In this document: piece after piece, positions 204 to 35,937 of the stretch
How the letters are laid out: each line of letters starts with the position of its first letter
Numbering within the stretch: position 1 is the stretch's first letter
Virus record (IMG/VR): IMGVR_UViG_3300029190_000005
Reading direction: 5' to 3' (one strand)
DNA: 37,783 nucleotides
From: a virus
Lineage: Duplodnaviria; Heunggongvirae; Uroviricota; Caudoviricetes
Notes under the pieces: model-generated
Told to the model about the DNA's origin: nothing
The model's input: only the letters and a program-made list of their open reading frames with translations
Database searches by the model: none
Position numbers and translations under genes: made by a program

Positions 204-239
204 GACGGTATTACCTTAAAGGTATACTCTCATACCGTC
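204..239. promoter_or_regulatory. Nested inverted repeats upstream of integrase, including an imperfect TTACC-N5-GGTAt site (211-225)
   Basis: GACGGTAT (204-211) pairs with ATACCGTC (232-239); TTACCTTAAAGGTAT at 211-225 differs from the window-wide palindrome family by one base. Confidence 0.35.
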
Positions 240-267
240 ATGAAAATGGTTTCTATACGGGTGAATT

Positions 268-1518
268 GTGCTTACCGATACAAAATTAAAAAACCTCAAG
301 CCGCAGGACAAACTGTACAAGGTCTCCGATCGTGACGGGCTGTATGTAGCTGTGCTTACGTCAGGCACGGTCTCATTTCGTTATGACTACCGTATCAACG
401 GTCGCCGCGAAACACTGGTAATCGGGCAGTATGGGCGTGACGGTATCAGCCTGGCAGAAGCGCGGGAAGAACTGATTGCTGCAAAGAAGCTGCTTAAAGC
501 AGGCCAGTCACCGGCTGCGGCTAAACGTGACGGTATCAAAAAGATTCGTGGTGCCGAAACGTTTGCGGTACATACCGACAGTTATATGAAACACGTCATC
601 CTGGCTGAAAGTACCCGCGCAATGAAGCAGGCAGTGATCGACCGTGACATACTTCCGGTTCTTGGCAACAAAATGATGGCTGAAATTACCACATCGATGG
701 TTCGTGATTTGTGTGACCGGATTGTCGAACGCGGTGGCCGGGCAACAGCAGTGCAGGCCAGGGAGATCATCAGCAGCGTATACCGTCACGCCAATGACCG
801 TGGTCATGGTTTGTTTAATCCTGCGGCTGACATTAAGCCTTCGTCTATCGCCATATTTAAACCACGAGAGCGAACACTGACACCAGAAGAAATTGGCCTG
901 TTCTTCCGCACGTTGGATGCCATTGGTGCTATGGGCACTATGAAAATGGCTTTAAAACTGGTGCTTATCACTATGGTTCGTAAGGGCGAATTCACCAATG
1001 CAACGTGGGATGAAATAGATTTTAAAAAATGGACATGGACAATTCCTTCAGACCGCATGAAGGGAAGCCGGGCGCATGTTATTTACCTGCCTAAACAGGC
1101 TCAGGATATATTGGTCGGGTTGCAGATGTGCGCTGGTGGAAGTGAATATCTGGTTCCTGGTCGTTACAATTTCCGGAAGCCATTATCTAATGCCGCGCTG
1201 AACTCTCTGATCGACAGAACGGTGAAAATAATAAATGAAGATGGTGAGCATATTCAGGATTTCACCGTACACGATATGCGCCGTACAGCCAGTACGTTGT
1301 TGCATGAGGCTGGTTATCCTTCAGACTGGATTGAAAAGGCTCTGGCACATGAGCAGAAAGGTGTGCGCGCCGTATATAACAAAGCGGAATACGCCAGACA
1401 GCGCGCCTACATGTTGCAGCAGTGGGCCGATATGATAGATTCCTGGATTAACGGGGAGCATACGGATCTGATTCCGTTCTCCCCGTCGAAGTTTGAGAAG
1501 TGGATGGCGAGGGAATAA
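268..1518 (+). CDS. Tyrosine recombinase / phage integrase (P4-like)
   Basis: 416-aa ORF with GTG start; N-terminal arm-binding-like region (LYVAVLTSGTVSFRYDYRINGRRETLVIG) and C-terminal catalytic region with HDMRRTASTLL and a tyrosine near the C-terminus; sits at the prophage-host junction. Confidence 0.9.
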   Translation: MLTDTKLKNLKPQDKLYKVSDRDGLYVAVLTSGTVSFRYDYRINGRRETLVIGQYGRDGISLAEAREELIAAKKLLKAGQSPAAAKRDGIKKIRGAETFAVHTDSYMKHVILAESTRAMKQAVIDRDILPVLGNKMMAEITTSMVRDLCDRIVERGGRATAVQAREIISSVYRHANDRGHGLFNPAADIKPSSIAIFKPRERTLTPEEIGLFFRTLDAIGAMGTMKMALKLVLITMVRKGEFTNATWDEIDFKKWTWTIPSDRMKGSRAHVIYLPKQAQDILVGLQMCAGGSEYLVPGRYNFRKPLSNAALNSLIDRTVKIINEDGEHIQDFTVHDMRRTASTLLHEAGYPSDWIEKALAHEQKGVRAVYNKAEYARQRAYMLQQWADMIDSWINGEHTDLIPFSPSKFEKWMARE

Positions 1519-1712
1519 CGTTTAATTATTCTGCTGATTTTCTTCCATCTCGGCTTCTGCTGCCAGTGATTCAATTTTATCTGTGAATATTGCTGACAGT
1601 GTTGCAAATTCAGCATCAGTGACAGCGGGAATTGGAACAAACCTGATCCCGCTGTGTGCAAGCATGTTTGCAGTTTCAAGGCATTTCCTTAAATCTGCTG
1701 GTGATGCCCTGT

Positions 1713-2363
1713 TCATGCTGCACGCTCCCGCCCCTGGTTGTCTGTTGGTGACAGCGGAGCATTGCTGAATGCATTTGTTAATCTGGCAATATCCAACGCG
1801 TATCCAGGGTGTAGTTGCACTGCCGGGTCTTCGCACTGATTACCCCAAACATCGAAACCATGAGACGACTGGCGGGCGAACAGTTCAATGCGAGAAACAT
1901 CGCCTAACAATTGCACAAGTTTTTCACGAACGATATCTGGTTTTCTTGAATGCTCAAGCCGCGGTGCGGTAAATGACTGAACGATCCCTGCATTAATGCG
2001 CGTAGGTAGTTTTCCCTTTACTGCAAACAGGCAATCTTCACTATTGGCGCGAGTCATGTGACCCATACCCATAACCAGTTTATCTGGTTGTCGACTACCA
2101 CATTTTATCCACGTGAATCCCTTCATGGTCATCAGACGGAATCCCCAGGCCTCAACAACTTTTAGTGCTTCGAGTGGTTGTGTTGGCACCCACCACATGG
2201 CCAACAGACAGTTTTCATCGGCCAAATCCCACACAGGAAGGCGGCAGATATCCAGCACACTCATAACCGGATATTTAAAACCGGCACCGCGATTACCATC
2301 TGCGGCTTTGTCCCGGTATACCCAGGGTGGATCTGCATAGATTAGTGTGTATTTCTTAGTCAT
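1713..2363 (-). CDS. N6-adenine DNA methyltransferase (MT-A70-like, DPPW motif), orphan
   Basis: Translation MTKKYTLIYADPPWVYRD... carries the DPPW catalytic motif. ATG at 2363 is preceded by GGGGTGG; the ORF track extends to a GTG at 2375. No partner restriction enzyme seen. Confidence 0.75.
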   Translation of the reverse strand: MTKKYTLIYADPPWVYRDKAADGNRGAGFKYPVMSVLDICRLPVWDLADENCLLAMWWVPTQPLEALKVVEAWGFRLMTMKGFTWIKCGSRQPDKLVMGMGHMTRANSEDCLFAVKGKLPTRINAGIVQSFTAPRLEHSRKPDIVREKLVQLLGDVSRIELFARQSSHGFDVWGNQCEDPAVQLHPGYALDIARLTNAFSNAPLSPTDNQGRERAA

Positions 2364-2655
2364 AAACCACCCCACAACATCCTATGCCGCTATAGTCGCC
2401 ACGGCGAAGGCCGTTACCTTTTGTGATACATTGGTCCCTGCGAACCGCGATCCTTGCACGCTCAACATCACCAGAAGCAACATCCATACACTGAAGCCAA
2501 AGGTGAGCGGCAATGCGGAACTGCCCTTTTTTCTCTCTTTCAATCGCGCGTTTTTCGATCTCTATCGCCGCAGGAGTAACGGCGACAATCTTTGACGGAC
2601 TGCGCATTGAAACCTTGTTCATGTGATATTTTTCAAGTCGGCTTAACTTTCTCAC
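2356..2655 (-). CDS. Hypothetical protein (early-left operon)
   Basis: 99-aa ORF with GTG start preceded by GAGAGGG; overlaps the methyltransferase start by a few nt as in an operon. No recognisable motif. Confidence 0.4.
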   Translation of the reverse strand: MRKLSRLEKYHMNKVSMRSPSKIVAVTPAAIEIEKRAIEREKKGQFRIAAHLWLQCMDVASGDVERARIAVRRDQCITKGNGLRRGDYSGIGCCGVVYD

Positions 2656-2764
2656 TTAATCCAACCCTCTCTGAAAATTAATGCCAGCAGATAAAGCCAT
2701 GCTGAAACAGAGGCCAGGAATAAGTACCATCCTGACCATTTGCTCCAGTGCCTTAGCAGCACAC

Positions 2765-3013
2765 TCATGCCGCGTTGCTCACGGGACGATATACACGTTG
2801 CTGAACAGGAGGTTTTTTACCCTGGAACTCTGCCGGGCTTGCTGCCTGACGTTCATCAAGCCAACGCTCAACTTCATCACGGTTCCATGCGCAGCGTTTA
2901 TCGGTGATATACCAGCGTTTAGGAAATTCCCCTGCGCGCTCCATACGGTCGATAGTGCTCCATGACAGTGGAACCACCGCCAGGAGTTCCTTCTTACCTA
3001 ATGCACCTTTCAT
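2765..3013 (-). CDS. AlpA/Xis-like small DNA-binding protein (putative excisionase or regulator)
   Basis: 82 aa; segment LSWSTIDRMERAGEFPKRWYITDKRCAWNRDEVERWL resembles the AlpA/excisionase winged-HTH family; lies near the integrase. Confidence 0.65.
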   Translation of the reverse strand: MKGALGKKELLAVVPLSWSTIDRMERAGEFPKRWYITDKRCAWNRDEVERWLDERQAASPAEFQGKKPPVQQRVYRPVSNAA

Positions 3014-35069: not shown

Positions 35070-35565
35070 ATTCCAGGGGTTGGTTCACCCTGGAATTTTT
35101 GGGAAGGACCCTGAGCTAATACCTATCAAAAACGCGTTCATAGATCACTGGCGCTACGGTCATCATAAGGATTTCGGAAAGGACACTCTGTTTCGGGATC
35201 CACCGAAAGAAATGCTGGAATATCACATACGCCACGTTCACGTAAACATCGGAAACTATACTGACAAGTTTGGTGAGAGCGGTACGGAACAATGCTGGAA
35301 AAACTGGGCGTCTGGGAAGAAAGACAAGACCACTAACAAGCATAAAAAGATCCCAACCAGTGACGTGTATGTGATTTATCTGGTCACATCTGAACGCCAT
35401 GCCTTCCTTCTGGATTATTGGGATGAACCAGCACATAAGACAGTAGAAATTGACGAGCAGAAGCAAAAATTAGTTGTCGAGTGTGACAGAATTTTGCGGC
35501 TGAAAAAGTTAGAATCCATGCCGCGCGATGCTAGTTTGTGGGACCCAGAATTTTACGACTGTTAA
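35059..35565 (+). CDS. YafO-like toxin family protein (putative)
   Basis: Segments GIFGKDPEL...HIRHVHVN...SDVYVIYLVTSERHAFLLDYWDEPAHK parallel E. coli YafO motifs (DIFGRD...HIHL...HLVYCQ...AWLLIAILKPEPHK) from memory. Confidence 0.45.
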   Translation: MLNKFQGLVHPGIFGKDPELIPIKNAFIDHWRYGHHKDFGKDTLFRDPPKEMLEYHIRHVHVNIGNYTDKFGESGTEQCWKNWASGKKDKTTNKHKKIPTSDVYVIYLVTSERHAFLLDYWDEPAHKTVEIDEQKQKLVVECDRILRLKKLESMPRDASLWDPEFYDC

Positions 35566-35566
35566 T

Positions 35567-35590
35567 GGCCGCTTTCGCGGCCTTTTCTTT
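35567..35590 (+). terminator. Bidirectional rho-independent terminator (GGCCGCTTTCGCGGCC + TTTTCTTT)
   Basis: Same hairpin core as 32313-32330; sits between convergent genes. Confidence 0.55.
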
Positions 35591-35846
35591 ATGTGGTTTG
35601 TTTTCGTAATTGTTCGGCACAATAGTCGAGATGTGTTTGCAGATCCTGCATAGACATCTGTGAGCTGGTGACGTAGTTAATCAGTGCAGTCAGTTCGGCA
35701 AGTGGGCCATCGACATTAAATCCATCCTTATCGAGATCCCGGAGTAATTTCATCAAGTGCGATCCCTCCACCAGTGACCTGACGCCTCCCGGCGTGTGAA
35801 TCCTTTCGGTAAATCCGTCTTCCAGTGGATAGTGATACTGCTGCAT
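35589..35846 (-). CDS. Short antirepressor paralog (C-terminal domain only)
   Basis: 85 aa from ATG at 35846 (GGAGAA 6 nt upstream): MQQYHYPLEDGFTERIHTPGGVRSLVEGSHLMKLLRDLDKDGFNVDGPLAELTALINYV... aligns with the C-terminus of the Bro-N protein (YSAPLKPGYRSLIHSPSGVLGLTENSLLMNLLNQLQEDGHDVSGAAAELTTMFCYIV...). Confidence 0.5.
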   Translation of the reverse strand: MQQYHYPLEDGFTERIHTPGGVRSLVEGSHLMKLLRDLDKDGFNVDGPLAELTALINYVTSSQMSMQDLQTHLDYCAEQLRKQTT

Positions 35847-35867
35847 CTTATCTTCTCCATGCAATAA

Positions 35868-35883
35868 CTGTATGTTTATACAG
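35868..35883. promoter_or_regulatory. LexA (SOS) box CTGTATGTTTATACAG
   Basis: Fits CTGT-N8-ACAG; the 20-mer AACTGTATGTTTATACAGTA matches consensus TACTGTATATATATACAGTA at most positions; 22 bp upstream of the short antirepressor start. Confidence 0.65.
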
Positions 35884-35922
35884 TAACAAATAATTTGTTT
35901 GCTATCCAGCACGTTTTGCAAA

Positions 35923-35937
35923 TTACCCGAAAGGTAA
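35923..35937. promoter_or_regulatory. Operator-like palindrome TTACCCGAAAGGTAA
   Basis: Perfect site upstream of the LexA box and short antirepressor gene, and about 105 bp upstream of the tail spike start. Confidence 0.55.

What the first reader, a model, noticed from the sequence alone, without database searches (positions are those of the whole stretch)
211..35937. Dispersed 15-bp palindrome TTACC-N5-GGTAA: a candidate multi-operon repressor regulon
Eleven perfect copies start at 5293, 5355, 6067, 8398, 8460, 12952, 15689, 16313, 33414, 34474 and 35923, with one-mismatch variants at 211, 6084, 6115 and 6452. A fixed 10-base pattern is expected about 0.04 times in 37.8 kb. Every copy is intergenic and next to a gene start: the divergent repressor/cro region, the head of the leftward operon, before the DUF1064-like gene, before terS, before the AT-rich moron, before the head block, and before both antirepressor paralogs and the toxin pair. 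This looks like one repressor controlling many separate promoters, including morons and its own antirepressors, rather than the classic two-operator lambda layout.
Basis: seen in the sequence. Interest (0 to 1): 0.85.

Follow-up and report, generated by a model that had tools for sequence, protein, structure and literature searches.

The report
Known repressor operators of a phiV10-like prophage
The repeated TTACC-N5-GGTAA palindrome is real and far from chance, but it is the operator of the immunity repressor of epsilon15/phiV10-like phages, already marked as scattered repressor-binding sites in the epsilon15 GenBank record, so it is an ordinary feature of a known phage group.

Summary
There are 11 perfect TTACC-N5-GGTAA copies at the stated coordinates, against none in 100 shuffles. 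All of them lie in the 9.7% of the window that is non-coding.

The window is a Uetakevirus (phiV10/epsilon15-like) prophage inserted at the 3' end of E. coli guaA. Its repressor is identical to phiV10 gp40 and homologous over its full length to the crystallised SPC32H Rep (PDB 5D50).

The same palindrome is the most frequent one in phiV10, PAS61, epsilon15, SPC32H, Tyrion and in prophages of more than ten other genera. It sits at the same places in each: a triplet between rep and cro, pairs 62 bp apart at the leftward operon and before DUF1064/RusA, a pair 18 bp apart before terS, and single sites before the head block and between ant and tailspike.

The epsilon15 GenBank record already annotates seven of these sites as "protein_bind: repressor".

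Distant Rep homologues with a different recognition helix (Vogesella) carry a different palindrome, which supports Rep as the binder.

Eight predicted sigma-70 promoters score in or near the top tenth of the window's background; at five the operator sits on the start site, at three it is elsewhere.

Direct binding, and repression of the late operons, were not shown here.

The parts
5427..6011 (-). rep: the immunity repressor (194 aa). It has an N-terminal DNA-binding domain, a second HTH_3-like domain and a C-terminal oligomerisation region.
   Evidence: 100% identical to phiV10 gp40. Full-length match to SPC32H Rep PDB 5D50, E 4e-42. Pfam HTH_3 at residues 106-147 and a weak YdaS-like HTH at 21-61, with no peptidase S24 domain. 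Overexpressing the identical ZX5 protein blocks lytic growth (PMC9782041).
6067..6081 (.). OR site 1 (perfect), the one nearest rep
   Evidence: The OR triplet spacing 0/+17/+47-48 is conserved in phiV10, epsilon15, SPC32H, Tyrion and a Serratia prophage.
6084..6098 (.). OR site 2 (GCACC...GGTAA, two mismatches)
   Evidence: The orthologous position is a perfect site in epsilon15 and SPC32H.
6115..6129 (.). OR site 3 (TTACC...GGTGA, one mismatch). It lies between the -35 and -10 of the predicted rightward promoter for the cro-like gene.
   Evidence: Promoter TTGTTA-17-TATTAT scores 10.6, with the operator centre at -25.
6166..6396 (+). cro-like gene (76 aa, no Pfam match), divergent from rep
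   Evidence: Position equivalent to epsilon15 gp39 and phiV10 gp41.
5293..5307 (.). OL site 1, on the start site of the leftward early promoter
   Evidence: Promoter TTGACA-17-AATTAT on the minus strand (5335-5307). Its last -10 base is the first T of the operator (score 11.3).
5355..5369 (.). OL site 2, 62 bp from OL site 1 (at -62 of PL)
   Evidence: The 62-bp pair is conserved in phiV10 and Tyrion. Epsilon15 and SPC32H have a triplet spaced 76+62.
6452..6466 (.). One-mismatch site (GTACC...) after the cro terminator, at about -60 of a predicted promoter for the replication genes
   Evidence: Conserved as GTACC in phiV10 and Tyrion. Promoter TTGATA-17-CAAAAT scores 10.4.
8398..8412 (.). Distal site of the pair before the DUF1064 gene
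   Evidence: The 62-bp pair is conserved in five phages, before DUF1064 or a RusA-like gene.
8460..8474 (.). Proximal site on the start site of the DUF1064 promoter. Its purine-rich spacer also serves as the ribosome-binding site; the ATG is at 8478.
   Evidence: Promoter TTGATT-17-TTTAAT scores 8.2, with the operator centre at 0. Spacers TAAGG/TTAGA/TGAGA/TGAGG/TAAGA at orthologous sites.
12952..12966 (.). terS upstream site 1 (perfect), just after a terminator
   Evidence: Annotated as 'protein_bind repressor' at the orthologous place in epsilon15 (12-27).
12970..12984 (.). terS upstream site 2 (one mismatch), 18 bp from site 1, ending 5 nt before the terS ATG
   Evidence: The pair is conserved in phiV10, epsilon15, SPC32H and Tyrion.
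15689..15703 (.). Site upstream of the leftward gene 15051-15656 (unknown function), downstream of tRNA-Arg and a terminator
   Evidence: Predicted promoter GTGACT-17-TAAGAT scores 8.6, with the operator centre at -17.
16313..16327 (.). Site upstream of the head/portal block
   Evidence: Orthologous site in all relatives, annotated in epsilon15 at 2931-2947. No strong sigma-70 promoter overlaps it.
33414..33428 (.). Site on the start site of a leftward promoter for an accessory pair (an unknown gene plus a DUF2335 membrane protein)
   Evidence: Promoter TTAAAA-16-TAAAAT ends at 33428, score 9.6. Gene identities.
34474..34488 (.). Site on the start site of a leftward promoter for the Bro-N/Ant-like gene
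   Evidence: Promoter TTGAAA-18-TATTAT ends at 34488, score 12.1.
34599..34613 (.). One-mismatch site at +3 of the rightward promoter for the YafO-family toxin pair
   Evidence: Promoter TTGCCA-18-TAGAAT scores 12.3. YafO annotation.
35923..35937 (.). Site between the divergent ant and tailspike genes
   Evidence: The orthologous site is annotated as repressor-binding in epsilon15 (19895-19911) and conserved in SPC32H and Tyrion.
35589..35846 (-). ant: small antirepressor
   Evidence: 88% identical to the characterised SPC32H Ant.
35866..35885 (.). LexA box (CTGT-N8-ACAG) just upstream of ant
   Evidence: conserved in epsilon15, SPC32H and Tyrion. LexA control of ant in SPC32H is from my recollection of Kim and Ryu 2013, which is not held.
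33514..34206 (-). Bro-N protein with an Ant-like C-terminal domain (second antirepressor candidate)
   Evidence: Pfam Bro-N and PHROG anti-repressor matches. The C-terminus is 40% identical to SPC32H Ant.
211..225 (.). One-mismatch copy upstream of int. Membership of the regulon is doubtful.
   Evidence: Conserved in all six genomes, but embedded in a longer inverted repeat GACGGTAT...ATACCGTC. Epsilon15 annotates that repeat as an integrase-binding and RNase III site.

Best explanation
TTACC-N5-GGTAA (fuller form A-TTACC-nnWnn-GGTAA-T) is the operator recognised by the N-terminal helix-turn-helix domain of the prophage repressor Rep (5427-6011, minus strand). Rep is a member of the SPC32H/epsilon15 Rep family.

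The two half-sites are 10 bp apart centre to centre, one helical turn, which suits a pair of HTH domains. By homology, Rep is a tetramer with two such pairs. That would explain why operators so often come in twos, 17-18 bp or 62 bp apart.

In the lysogen, Rep is inferred to occupy about sixteen sites at about eleven places. These are PL; PR and its own promoter; the replication-gene promoter; the DUF1064 promoter; terS; the head block; the ant/tailspike region; and four accessory cassettes (the unknown gene 15051-15656, the DUF2335 pair, the Bro-N/Ant-like gene and the YafO toxin pair).

Where a good sigma-70 promoter can be recognised, the operator covers the start site or the core of the promoter, so repression would be by occlusion of RNA polymerase. 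Induction would follow the SPC32H scheme: DNA damage removes LexA from the ant promoter, and Ant takes Rep off the DNA.

Shown here: the motif, its statistics, its conservation, the homology, and the predicted promoter overlaps. Inferred: binding by Rep, tetramer bridging, and repression at each site.
For: - Enrichment: 11 copies against 0 in shuffles. There are 500 copies in 1.2 Mb of 80 viral contigs encoding a Rep 99-100% identical to this one, with 56 different spacers and invariant arms.
- An unbiased count of 5-Nx-5 palindromes puts this one first in the window, PAS61, phiV10, epsilon15, SPC32H, Tyrion and a Serratia prophage. The same holds in 13 of 24 species-representative genomes whose Rep homologues are 41-75% identical to this one.
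- All copies are non-coding, and there are none in 40 kb of flanking host DNA.
- Positions and spacings are conserved across phages only about 77% identical in DNA.
- Seven of the eleven epsilon15 copies are annotated 'protein_bind, repressor, lysogeny' in AY150271.2 / NC_004775.2 (versus 24, 56).
- Rep is homologous to PDB 5D50 over residues 1-190. N36, R40 and W41 of the N-terminal NLVNRW stretch (taken here as the recognition helix) are invariant, and the N-terminal domain is the better conserved part.
- Covariation: Bordetella and Cupriavidus homologues (SLVSRY / SLVNRY) keep a TTACC-N5-GGT triplet upstream of rep. Vogesella homologues (GQASHL) instead have TATCAA-N-TTGATA twice upstream of rep and once elsewhere.
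- Promoter overlap: the operator centre is at 0 or +3 for five predicted promoters scoring 8.2-12.3, where the background 95th percentile is 8.9. It is at -25 for PR.
- Literature: SPC32H Rep binds palindromic sites as a tetramer (PMC9638917; PMC9986798). Overexpressing the identical ZX5 repressor cuts holin and endolysin transcripts by more than 99.9% (PMC9782041).
Against: - No binding or transcription data for this phage could be produced or read. The primary papers (Kim and Ryu 2013, Kim et al. 2016, Kropinski et al. 2007) are not held. The exact operators they define are therefore not verified against this motif.
- At the head block, tailspike and ant the best sigma-70 candidates are weak (scores 5.1-6.6). 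The operator lies 45-71 bp upstream of the presumed start, which is not a classic occlusion position. At terS the best candidate is also weak (5.1), though there the operator covers its start site.
- The A/T-rich flank of the operator (..AT|TACC) itself resembles a -10 hexamer, so some of the '-10 fused to operator' predictions may be by-products of the operator consensus.
- The cro-like protein could bind the same sites.
- In this prophage the lysis operon has only a half-site.
Confidence: 0.85

Rival explanations
1. The palindromes act as RNA hairpins in the leaders of the operons, for example as processing, pausing or antitermination signals like lambda boxB, rather than as protein-binding DNA.
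For: Each copy can form a 5-7 bp stem with a 3-5 nt loop of -3.6 to -6.2 kcal/mol. The 5-bp stem and 5-nt loop are superficially like boxB. Epsilon15 annotators placed RNase III sites near some copies.
Against: The arms are invariant in sequence in 56 of 56 copies from six genomes and in 500 copies from 80 contigs, with no compensatory stem changes. Imperfect copies are not compensated (GCACC...GGTAA, TTACC...GGTGA), and the loop is free to vary. Several copies lie upstream of the predicted start site, or on it, and would be only partly transcribed. The sites are symmetric and serve both strands. The hairpins are weak.
Confidence: 0.03
2. The sites are bound mainly by a different protein: the cro-like product, a phage activator (PerC-like, AlpA-like or gp55-like), or a host regulator. 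At the late operons they would act as upstream activator sites rather than as operators.
For: At the head, tailspike and (in epsilon15) lysis operons the site lies about 60-80 bp upstream of a -10-like element that has no -35, which is a typical activator position. A Cro-type protein usually shares the repressor's operators.
Against: The triplet between rep and cro and the pair or triplet at OL are the hallmark of an immunity repressor. The motif tracks the Rep N-terminal domain across genera and changes with it. At five promoters the site sits on the start site, which is a repressing position. Adjacent host DNA has none, and only about 5 copies are expected by chance in a 5-Mb genome. Epsilon15 curators assigned the sites to the repressor.
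Confidence: 0.08
3. The conserved operator-bearing spacers are chiefly recombination junctions, that is, module boundaries reused in mosaic exchange. Their dispersal would reflect how cassettes are swapped rather than regulation.
For: The same 62-bp operator pair with an identical ...GGTAAatcATG junction precedes DUF1064 in the window, phiV10 and SPC32H, but a RusA-like resolvase in epsilon15 and Tyrion. Each accessory cassette in 32.3-35.6 kb brings its own copy.
Against: Exchange at conserved spacers would be a consequence of conservation, not its cause. Invariant arms next to a freely varying spacer point to selection by a sequence-specific binder. This can only be a secondary role.
Confidence: 0.04

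Closest known systems
Rep/Ant immunity system of Salmonella phage SPC32H (Uetakevirus; PDB 5D50, 5D4Z)
   Same: Rep is homologous over its full length. Ant is 88% identical. A LexA box sits upstream of ant. The same palindrome occurs 10 times in SPC32H at the same relative places. Rep has no autocleavage domain.
   Different: Rep is only 43% identical overall (53% in the N-terminal domain, 38% in residues 88-194). This prophage adds a second, Bro-N-fused Ant-like protein and extra operator-bearing accessory cassettes. OL has two sites rather than three.
Repressor-binding sites annotated in the phage epsilon15 GenBank record (AY150271.2 / NC_004775.2)
   Same: The motif is identical: the seven annotated features are the seven ATTACC-N5-GGTAAT copies. 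So is the distribution: before terS, before the head block, between gp19 (ant) and the tail fibre, at OL, and before the gene after the replication module.
   Different: The epsilon15 record does not mark the OR copies, the lysis-operon copy or the proximal copy of the RusA pair. The window has further copies at accessory genes that epsilon15 lacks.
Phage P1 C1 repressor and its dispersed operators
   Same: One repressor with many operators spread over the genome controls many separate operons, and it is inactivated by an antirepressor (Coi) rather than by cleavage. There are 22 operators (PMC8546580).
   Different: P1 operators are asymmetric 17-mers (ATTGCTCTAATAAATTT). C1 is unrelated in sequence to this HTH protein. 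P1 is a plasmid prophage with a myovirus particle.
Stoperators of Cluster A mycobacteriophages (L5, Bxb1)
   Same: Numerous repressor sites are distributed across the phage genome beyond the early promoter (PMC9283540).
   Different: Stoperators are asymmetric, are bound by a monomer, and stop elongation. From memory, not checked here: they are oriented with transcription and number 20-30. The sites here are palindromic, lie only between genes at operon heads, and overlap promoters.
Lambda CI/Cro with OL and OR
   Same: rep and cro are divergent with a three-site OR, and there is a multi-site OL at the leftward early promoter. Cooperative binding to paired sites is expected.
   Different: There are about eleven operator regions rather than two. 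There is no RecA-dependent cleavage domain. Late operons and accessory genes carry their own sites.

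Membership tests
SPC32H-type Rep/Ant immunity system (Uetakevirus) | Repressor homologous to SPC32H Rep over both the N-terminal DNA-binding domain and the C-terminal oligomerisation/Ant-binding domain | tested here: met
   phmmer against the PDB: 5D50 E 4e-42 over residues 1-190; 5D4Z (C-terminal domain) E 4e-20.
SPC32H-type Rep/Ant immunity system (Uetakevirus) | Small antirepressor Ant encoded opposite the tailspike gene | tested here: met
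   The product of 35589-35846 (minus strand) is 88% identical to SPC32H Ant. The gene order is the same.
SPC32H-type Rep/Ant immunity system (Uetakevirus) | LexA box at the ant promoter | tested here: met
   AACTGTATGTTTATACAGTA at 35866-35885, 20 nt upstream of the ant start, the only such site in the window. Conserved in relatives. Its function was not tested.
SPC32H-type Rep/Ant immunity system (Uetakevirus) | Repressor lacks a RecA-stimulated self-cleavage (peptidase S24) domain | tested here: met
   Pfam finds only HTH families in Rep.
SPC32H-type Rep/Ant immunity system (Uetakevirus) | Rep binds palindromic operators as a tetramer | not testable with these tools
   Stated for SPC32H in PMC9638917. 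Here there is only indirect support: paired sites 17-18 and 62 bp apart.
Epsilon15-type dispersed repressor sites (GenBank annotation) | The same palindrome at the heads of several operons outside the immunity region | tested here: met
   Epsilon15 features at 12-27, 2931-2947, 19895-19911, 32479-32494, 32554-32570, 32616-32632 and 35906-35922 coincide with TTACC-N5-GGTAA copies. The orthologous window sites are 12952, 16313, 35923, 5293/5355 and 8398.
Lambda-type CI/Cro switch | Operators confined to two regions (OL, OR) flanking the repressor gene | tested here: not met
   16-17 sites at about 11 regions spread over 36 kb.
Lambda-type CI/Cro switch | Tripartite operator between divergent repressor and cro genes | tested here: met
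   6067 / 6084 / 6115, spacing 17 and 31 bp, conserved in relatives.
P1 C1-type dispersed-operator regulon | Asymmetric 17-bp operator and a C1-family protein | tested here: not met
   The motif is a perfect palindrome. Rep matches HTH_3 and 5D50, not C1. The resemblance is in layout only.
Mycobacteriophage stoperators | Asymmetric sites, many of them inside or between genes within operons, oriented with transcription | tested here: not met
   The sites are symmetric, all are non-coding, and they sit at operon heads.

The most novel reading that the evidence does not exclude
Rep in these phages would be a global silencer that directly gates every lytic transcription unit, including the structural, tailspike and accessory toxin/antirepressor cassettes, rather than only the early promoters. 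Its tetramers would bridge paired sites (62 bp) and perhaps distant single sites into loops. The late operons would additionally depend on an unidentified factor that reads the conserved CAT-ATRTGGTT element placed 7 nt upstream of their -10. That would give a P1-like distributed immunity layout in a lambda-looking podovirus, with a new late-promoter signal.
Probability: 0.3. Interest if true: 0.45.

Novelty: already known. Interest (0 to 1): 0.2.

Why it matters
The finding mainly helps annotation.

- phiV10-type prophages are common in E. coli: at least 565 of 5,426 complete genomes carry this integrase region at guaA. phiV10 is also used as a reporter phage.
- The phiV10, PAS61 and RefSeq records, and the ZX5 paper, do not mark the operators. 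Transferring the epsilon15/SPC32H knowledge gives a ready map of Rep-controlled promoters.
- That map includes promoters in front of a YafO toxin pair and a second antirepressor candidate.
- It also gives a simple sequence signature (A-TTACC-N5-GGTAA-T in clusters) for recognising this immunity type in Enterobacterales prophages.

It does not open a new question.

Tried and rejected
- **Primary papers.** I tried to read Kropinski 2007, Kim and Ryu 2013 and Kim 2016 by DOI and PMC id. None is held. A full-text search for the motif string found nothing.
- **Close relatives for covariation.** The first viral-contig scan returned only Rep copies 99-100% identical to the query. It was useless for covariation but useful for spacer variation. 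A protein search with the N-terminal domain alone also returned only near-identical fragments.
- **Chance and host-wide motif.** Rejected by the shuffles, the 40 kb of flanking host DNA and the non-coding restriction.
- **RNA hairpin or boxB-like element.** Rejected because the arms never covary and the loops vary freely.
- **Restriction-modification or methylase target.** Rejected by reasoning: ten specified bases is too long, and the sites occur only in promoter spacers.
- **Sigma-54 promoter reading of ATRTGGTT...GGTAA.** Rejected by hand alignment: the GG-N10-GC spacing does not fit.
- **The '-10 hexamer fused to the operator' rule.** I treated it with caution once the extended operator consensus (..AT|TACC) turned out to look like a -10 by itself. 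Only promoters that also have a good -35 (PL, BroN-Ant, YafO, PR, PR2) are relied on.

Full report
**1. The observation.**
A search for TTACC-N5-GGTAA finds 11 perfect copies at exactly the coordinates given. None of 100 dinucleotide-preserving shuffles gave any copy. Allowing one mismatch gives 16 copies against 0.67 expected.

Site 6084 has two mismatches, and 12970 and 34599 (one mismatch each) were missed.

I built a gene table from the RefSeq annotation of an E. coli chromosome that matches the window exactly over its first 1,600 bases and from 30,974 on, though not at the very end of the window. With it, all 11 perfect and 6 variant copies fall in the 9.7% of the window that is non-coding. 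This takes the terS start as ATG 12989, as in epsilon15. The alternative TTG start would put a terminator inside the gene.

The 40.3 kb of host chromosome next to the prophage holds no perfect copy.

**2. What the window is.**
It is a Uetakevirus prophage, 97-98% identical to phages PAS61, phiv142-3 and phiV10 and about 77% identical to epsilon15 and SPC32H. It is inserted at the 3' end of guaA and is cut off after the tailspike gene.

The repressor (5427-6011, minus strand) is identical to phiV10 gp40 and 43% identical to SPC32H Rep. It matches the crystal structure 5D50 over residues 1-190. Pfam finds HTH domains and no self-cleavage domain.

The small gene 35589-35846 is 88% identical to the SPC32H antirepressor Ant. 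It is preceded by a LexA box at 35866-35885. The Bro-N protein 33514-34206 has an Ant-like C-terminus.

**3. The motif elsewhere.**
I counted every 5-Nx-5 palindrome without prior assumptions. TTACC-N5-GGTAA came first in the window (11), PAS61 (8), phiV10 (8), epsilon15 (11), SPC32H (10), Tyrion (9) and a Serratia ficaria prophage whose Rep is 54% identical (7 in 20.6 kb).

Eighty viral contigs encoding a Rep 99-100% identical to this one hold 500 copies in 1.2 Mb. These have 56 different spacers and invariant arms.

The symmetrised consensus is A-TTACC-nnWnn-GGTAA-T.

Decisively for novelty, the epsilon15 GenBank and RefSeq records carry seven 'protein_bind, repressor, lysogeny' features. 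Their coordinates are the seven ATTACC-N5-GGTAAT copies of that genome. They lie before terS, before the head block, between gp19 (ant) and the tail fibre, three at the leftward operon, and one after the replication genes. The dispersed-operator reading was therefore already made by the epsilon15 annotators.

**4. Geometry.**
The arrangement is conserved even where the surrounding DNA has diverged:
- a triplet between rep and the cro-like gene, at 0, +17 and +47/48;
- a pair 62 bp apart at the leftward operon (76+62 in epsilon15 and SPC32H);
- a pair 62 bp apart before DUF1064 or, in other phages, a RusA-like gene;
- a pair 18 bp apart before terS;
- single sites before the head block and between ant and tailspike.

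A spacing of 62 bp is about six helical turns. Pairs fit a protein with two DNA-binding units. SPC32H Rep is described as a tetramer that binds palindromic sites with N-terminal domains drawn from different dimers (PMC9638917; PMC9986798).

**5. Who binds.**
The N-terminal domain of Rep is its best conserved part: 20 of 72 columns are invariant, against 14 of 107 in the rest. N36, R40 and W41 of the NLVNRW stretch, which I take to be the recognition helix, are invariant among them.

A scan of one genome per species gave 24 loci.
- Thirteen loci, mostly Enterobacterales, whose Rep NLVNRW-type motif ends in RW and is 41-75% identical to this one, have TTACC-N5-GGTAA as their top palindrome, with 5-9 copies per locus. 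One locus with a more altered motif (SVVSRW, Citrobacter sp. JGM124) has none.
- Bordetella and Cupriavidus homologues (SLVSRY / SLVNRY) keep a triplet of TTACC-N5-GGT just upstream of rep and little else.
- Vogesella homologues (GQASHL) have no TTACC site. They have TATCAA-N-TTGATA twice upstream of rep and once a few kb away.

The palindrome thus follows the Rep DNA-binding domain. Functional support comes from phage ZX5, whose repressor has the same sequence: overexpression abolished free phage and cut holin and endolysin transcripts by more than 99.9% (PMC9782041).

**6. How it probably works.**
I used a simple position-weight scan for sigma-70 promoters, with a background 95th percentile of 8.9 per 150 nt, alongside the consensus scan. 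Eight promoters score between 8.2 and 12.3.
- Operator centre on the start site:
  - PL (TTGACA-17-AATTAT, score 11.3, site 5293);
  - P-DUF1064 (8.2, site 8460);
  - the promoter of the DUF2335 pair (9.6, site 33414);
  - the Bro-N/Ant-like promoter (12.1, site 34474);
  - the YafO-pair promoter (12.3, site 34599).
- Operator elsewhere in or near the promoter:
  - PR (10.6): site 6115 lies between the -35 and the -10.
  - The promoter of gene 15051-15656 (8.6): site 15689 covers the -10.
  - The replication-gene promoter (10.4): site 6452 is at -60.

These positions imply simple occlusion, helped by a second site 62 bp upstream at PL and P-DUF1064.

The picture is weaker at the late operons. 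The head block, tailspike and ant have only poor sigma-70 candidates (5.1-6.6), with the operator 45-71 bp upstream. At terS the best candidate is also poor (5.1), though the operator covers its start site. Rep may act there by bridging, or by blocking an upstream element. This is inference.

One caution applies. The operator's own A/T-rich flank looks like a -10 hexamer, so only promoters with a good -35 are relied on.

**7. Rivals.**
- RNA hairpins are weak and show no compensatory change.
- A host regulon is not supported by the flanking DNA.
- A different phage protein is hard to reconcile with the covariation and with the layout around rep, although the cro-like protein may well share the sites.
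- Site 211 is conserved, but it sits inside a longer inverted repeat that epsilon15 annotates as an integrase-binding and RNase III site. I leave it as doubtful.

**8. Comparison and verdict.**
The system is a member of the SPC32H/epsilon15 Rep-Ant family. In layout it resembles the P1 C1 regulon, which has 22 dispersed operators, though asymmetric ones (PMC8546580). It resembles the mycobacteriophage stoperators less (PMC9283540).

What this analysis adds is incremental:
- the full site list for a phiV10-type prophage;
- the conserved spacings;
- the predicted promoter overlaps;
- operators in front of accessory cassettes, including a toxin pair and a second antirepressor candidate;
- the helix/operator covariation.

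Interest is low.

Noticed in passing
window 5319, 5419, 6478, 8447, 16372, 34522, 35591, 35970 (+ strand); 37406 (- strand): A second motif, (C)AT-ATRTGGTT, occurs 9 times against 2.7 expected, 8 of them on the + strand. Seven of the eight + strand copies lie between genes, and six of them 11-44 nt downstream of a Rep operator. At the head, tailspike and (in relatives) lysis operons it sits exactly 7 nt upstream of a -10-like TAATAA / TAATAG / TATGAT with no -35. It is conserved in epsilon15, Tyrion and a Serratia prophage. This prophage's lysis promoter has it as a palindrome, AACCAT-AA-ATGGTT. It may be a late-promoter element or the site of another regulator. It remains unexplained.
   Followed up: partly
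window 8460-8480 and orthologues (L002 35132, L003 35969, L004 36034, L005 37327): The proximal operator before DUF1064 has a purine-rich spacer (TAAGG, TGAGA and similar) that doubles as the Shine-Dalgarno sequence, and the ATG follows 3 nt after the operator. The identical junction ...GGTAAatcATG precedes DUF1064 in some phages and a RusA-like resolvase in others, so the operator-promoter unit marks a module-exchange boundary.
   Followed up: partly
window 35866-35885: A LexA box (AACTGTATGTTTATACAGTA) lies 20 nt upstream of ant. It is the only one in the window and is conserved in epsilon15, SPC32H and Tyrion. The Bro-N/Ant-like paralogue has no LexA box and appears to be under Rep control only.
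   Followed up: partly
window 12528-12865: The homologue of phiV10 gp55 / epsilon15 gp49 ('transcriptional regulator', with a Cys-rich C-terminus) is split between two reading frames. Residues 1-88 are in one frame and 76-112 in another, and RefSeq flags the gene as frameshifted. The isolated phage EC.W1-9 has 100% identical DNA here (H27). The shift may therefore be tolerated, programmed, or the gene dispensable. Neighbouring genes at 10972-12413 are also flagged as pseudogenes.
   Followed up: partly
window 7017-7169: Six iteron-like direct repeats (core CCCAAAAACGGGA, spaced 18-24 bp apart, 45 bp after the first) lie inside the DnaT-like replication gene. They are probably the phage origin, as with lambda ori inside the O gene.
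   Followed up: no
window 15907-15983 (- strand): A tRNA-Arg (anticodon TCT) gene lies between terL and the head block, followed by a terminator and then the operator at 15689. SPC32H has a tRNA-Arg at the same place.
   Followed up: no
window 34626-35565: An accessory pair ends in a YafO-family type II toxin (RefSeq annotation). It is driven by the best-scoring promoter in the region (TTGCCA-18-TAGAAT), with a one-mismatch Rep operator at +3. A toxin gene that is silent in the lysogen and released on induction would be worth a look.
   Followed up: no
window 5325-5369 (+ strand): A possible rightward promoter (TTGATG, about 17-18 nt, AAAAAT) lies back to back with PL, with operator 5355 on its start site. 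It would read through the rep terminator, antisense to rep. I found it by eye only and did not score it.
   Followed up: no
window 202-246: The int-proximal variant site lies inside a longer conserved inverted repeat, GACGGTAT-N20-ATACCGTC. Epsilon15 annotates the equivalent stretch as an integrase-binding and RNase III site.
   Followed up: partly
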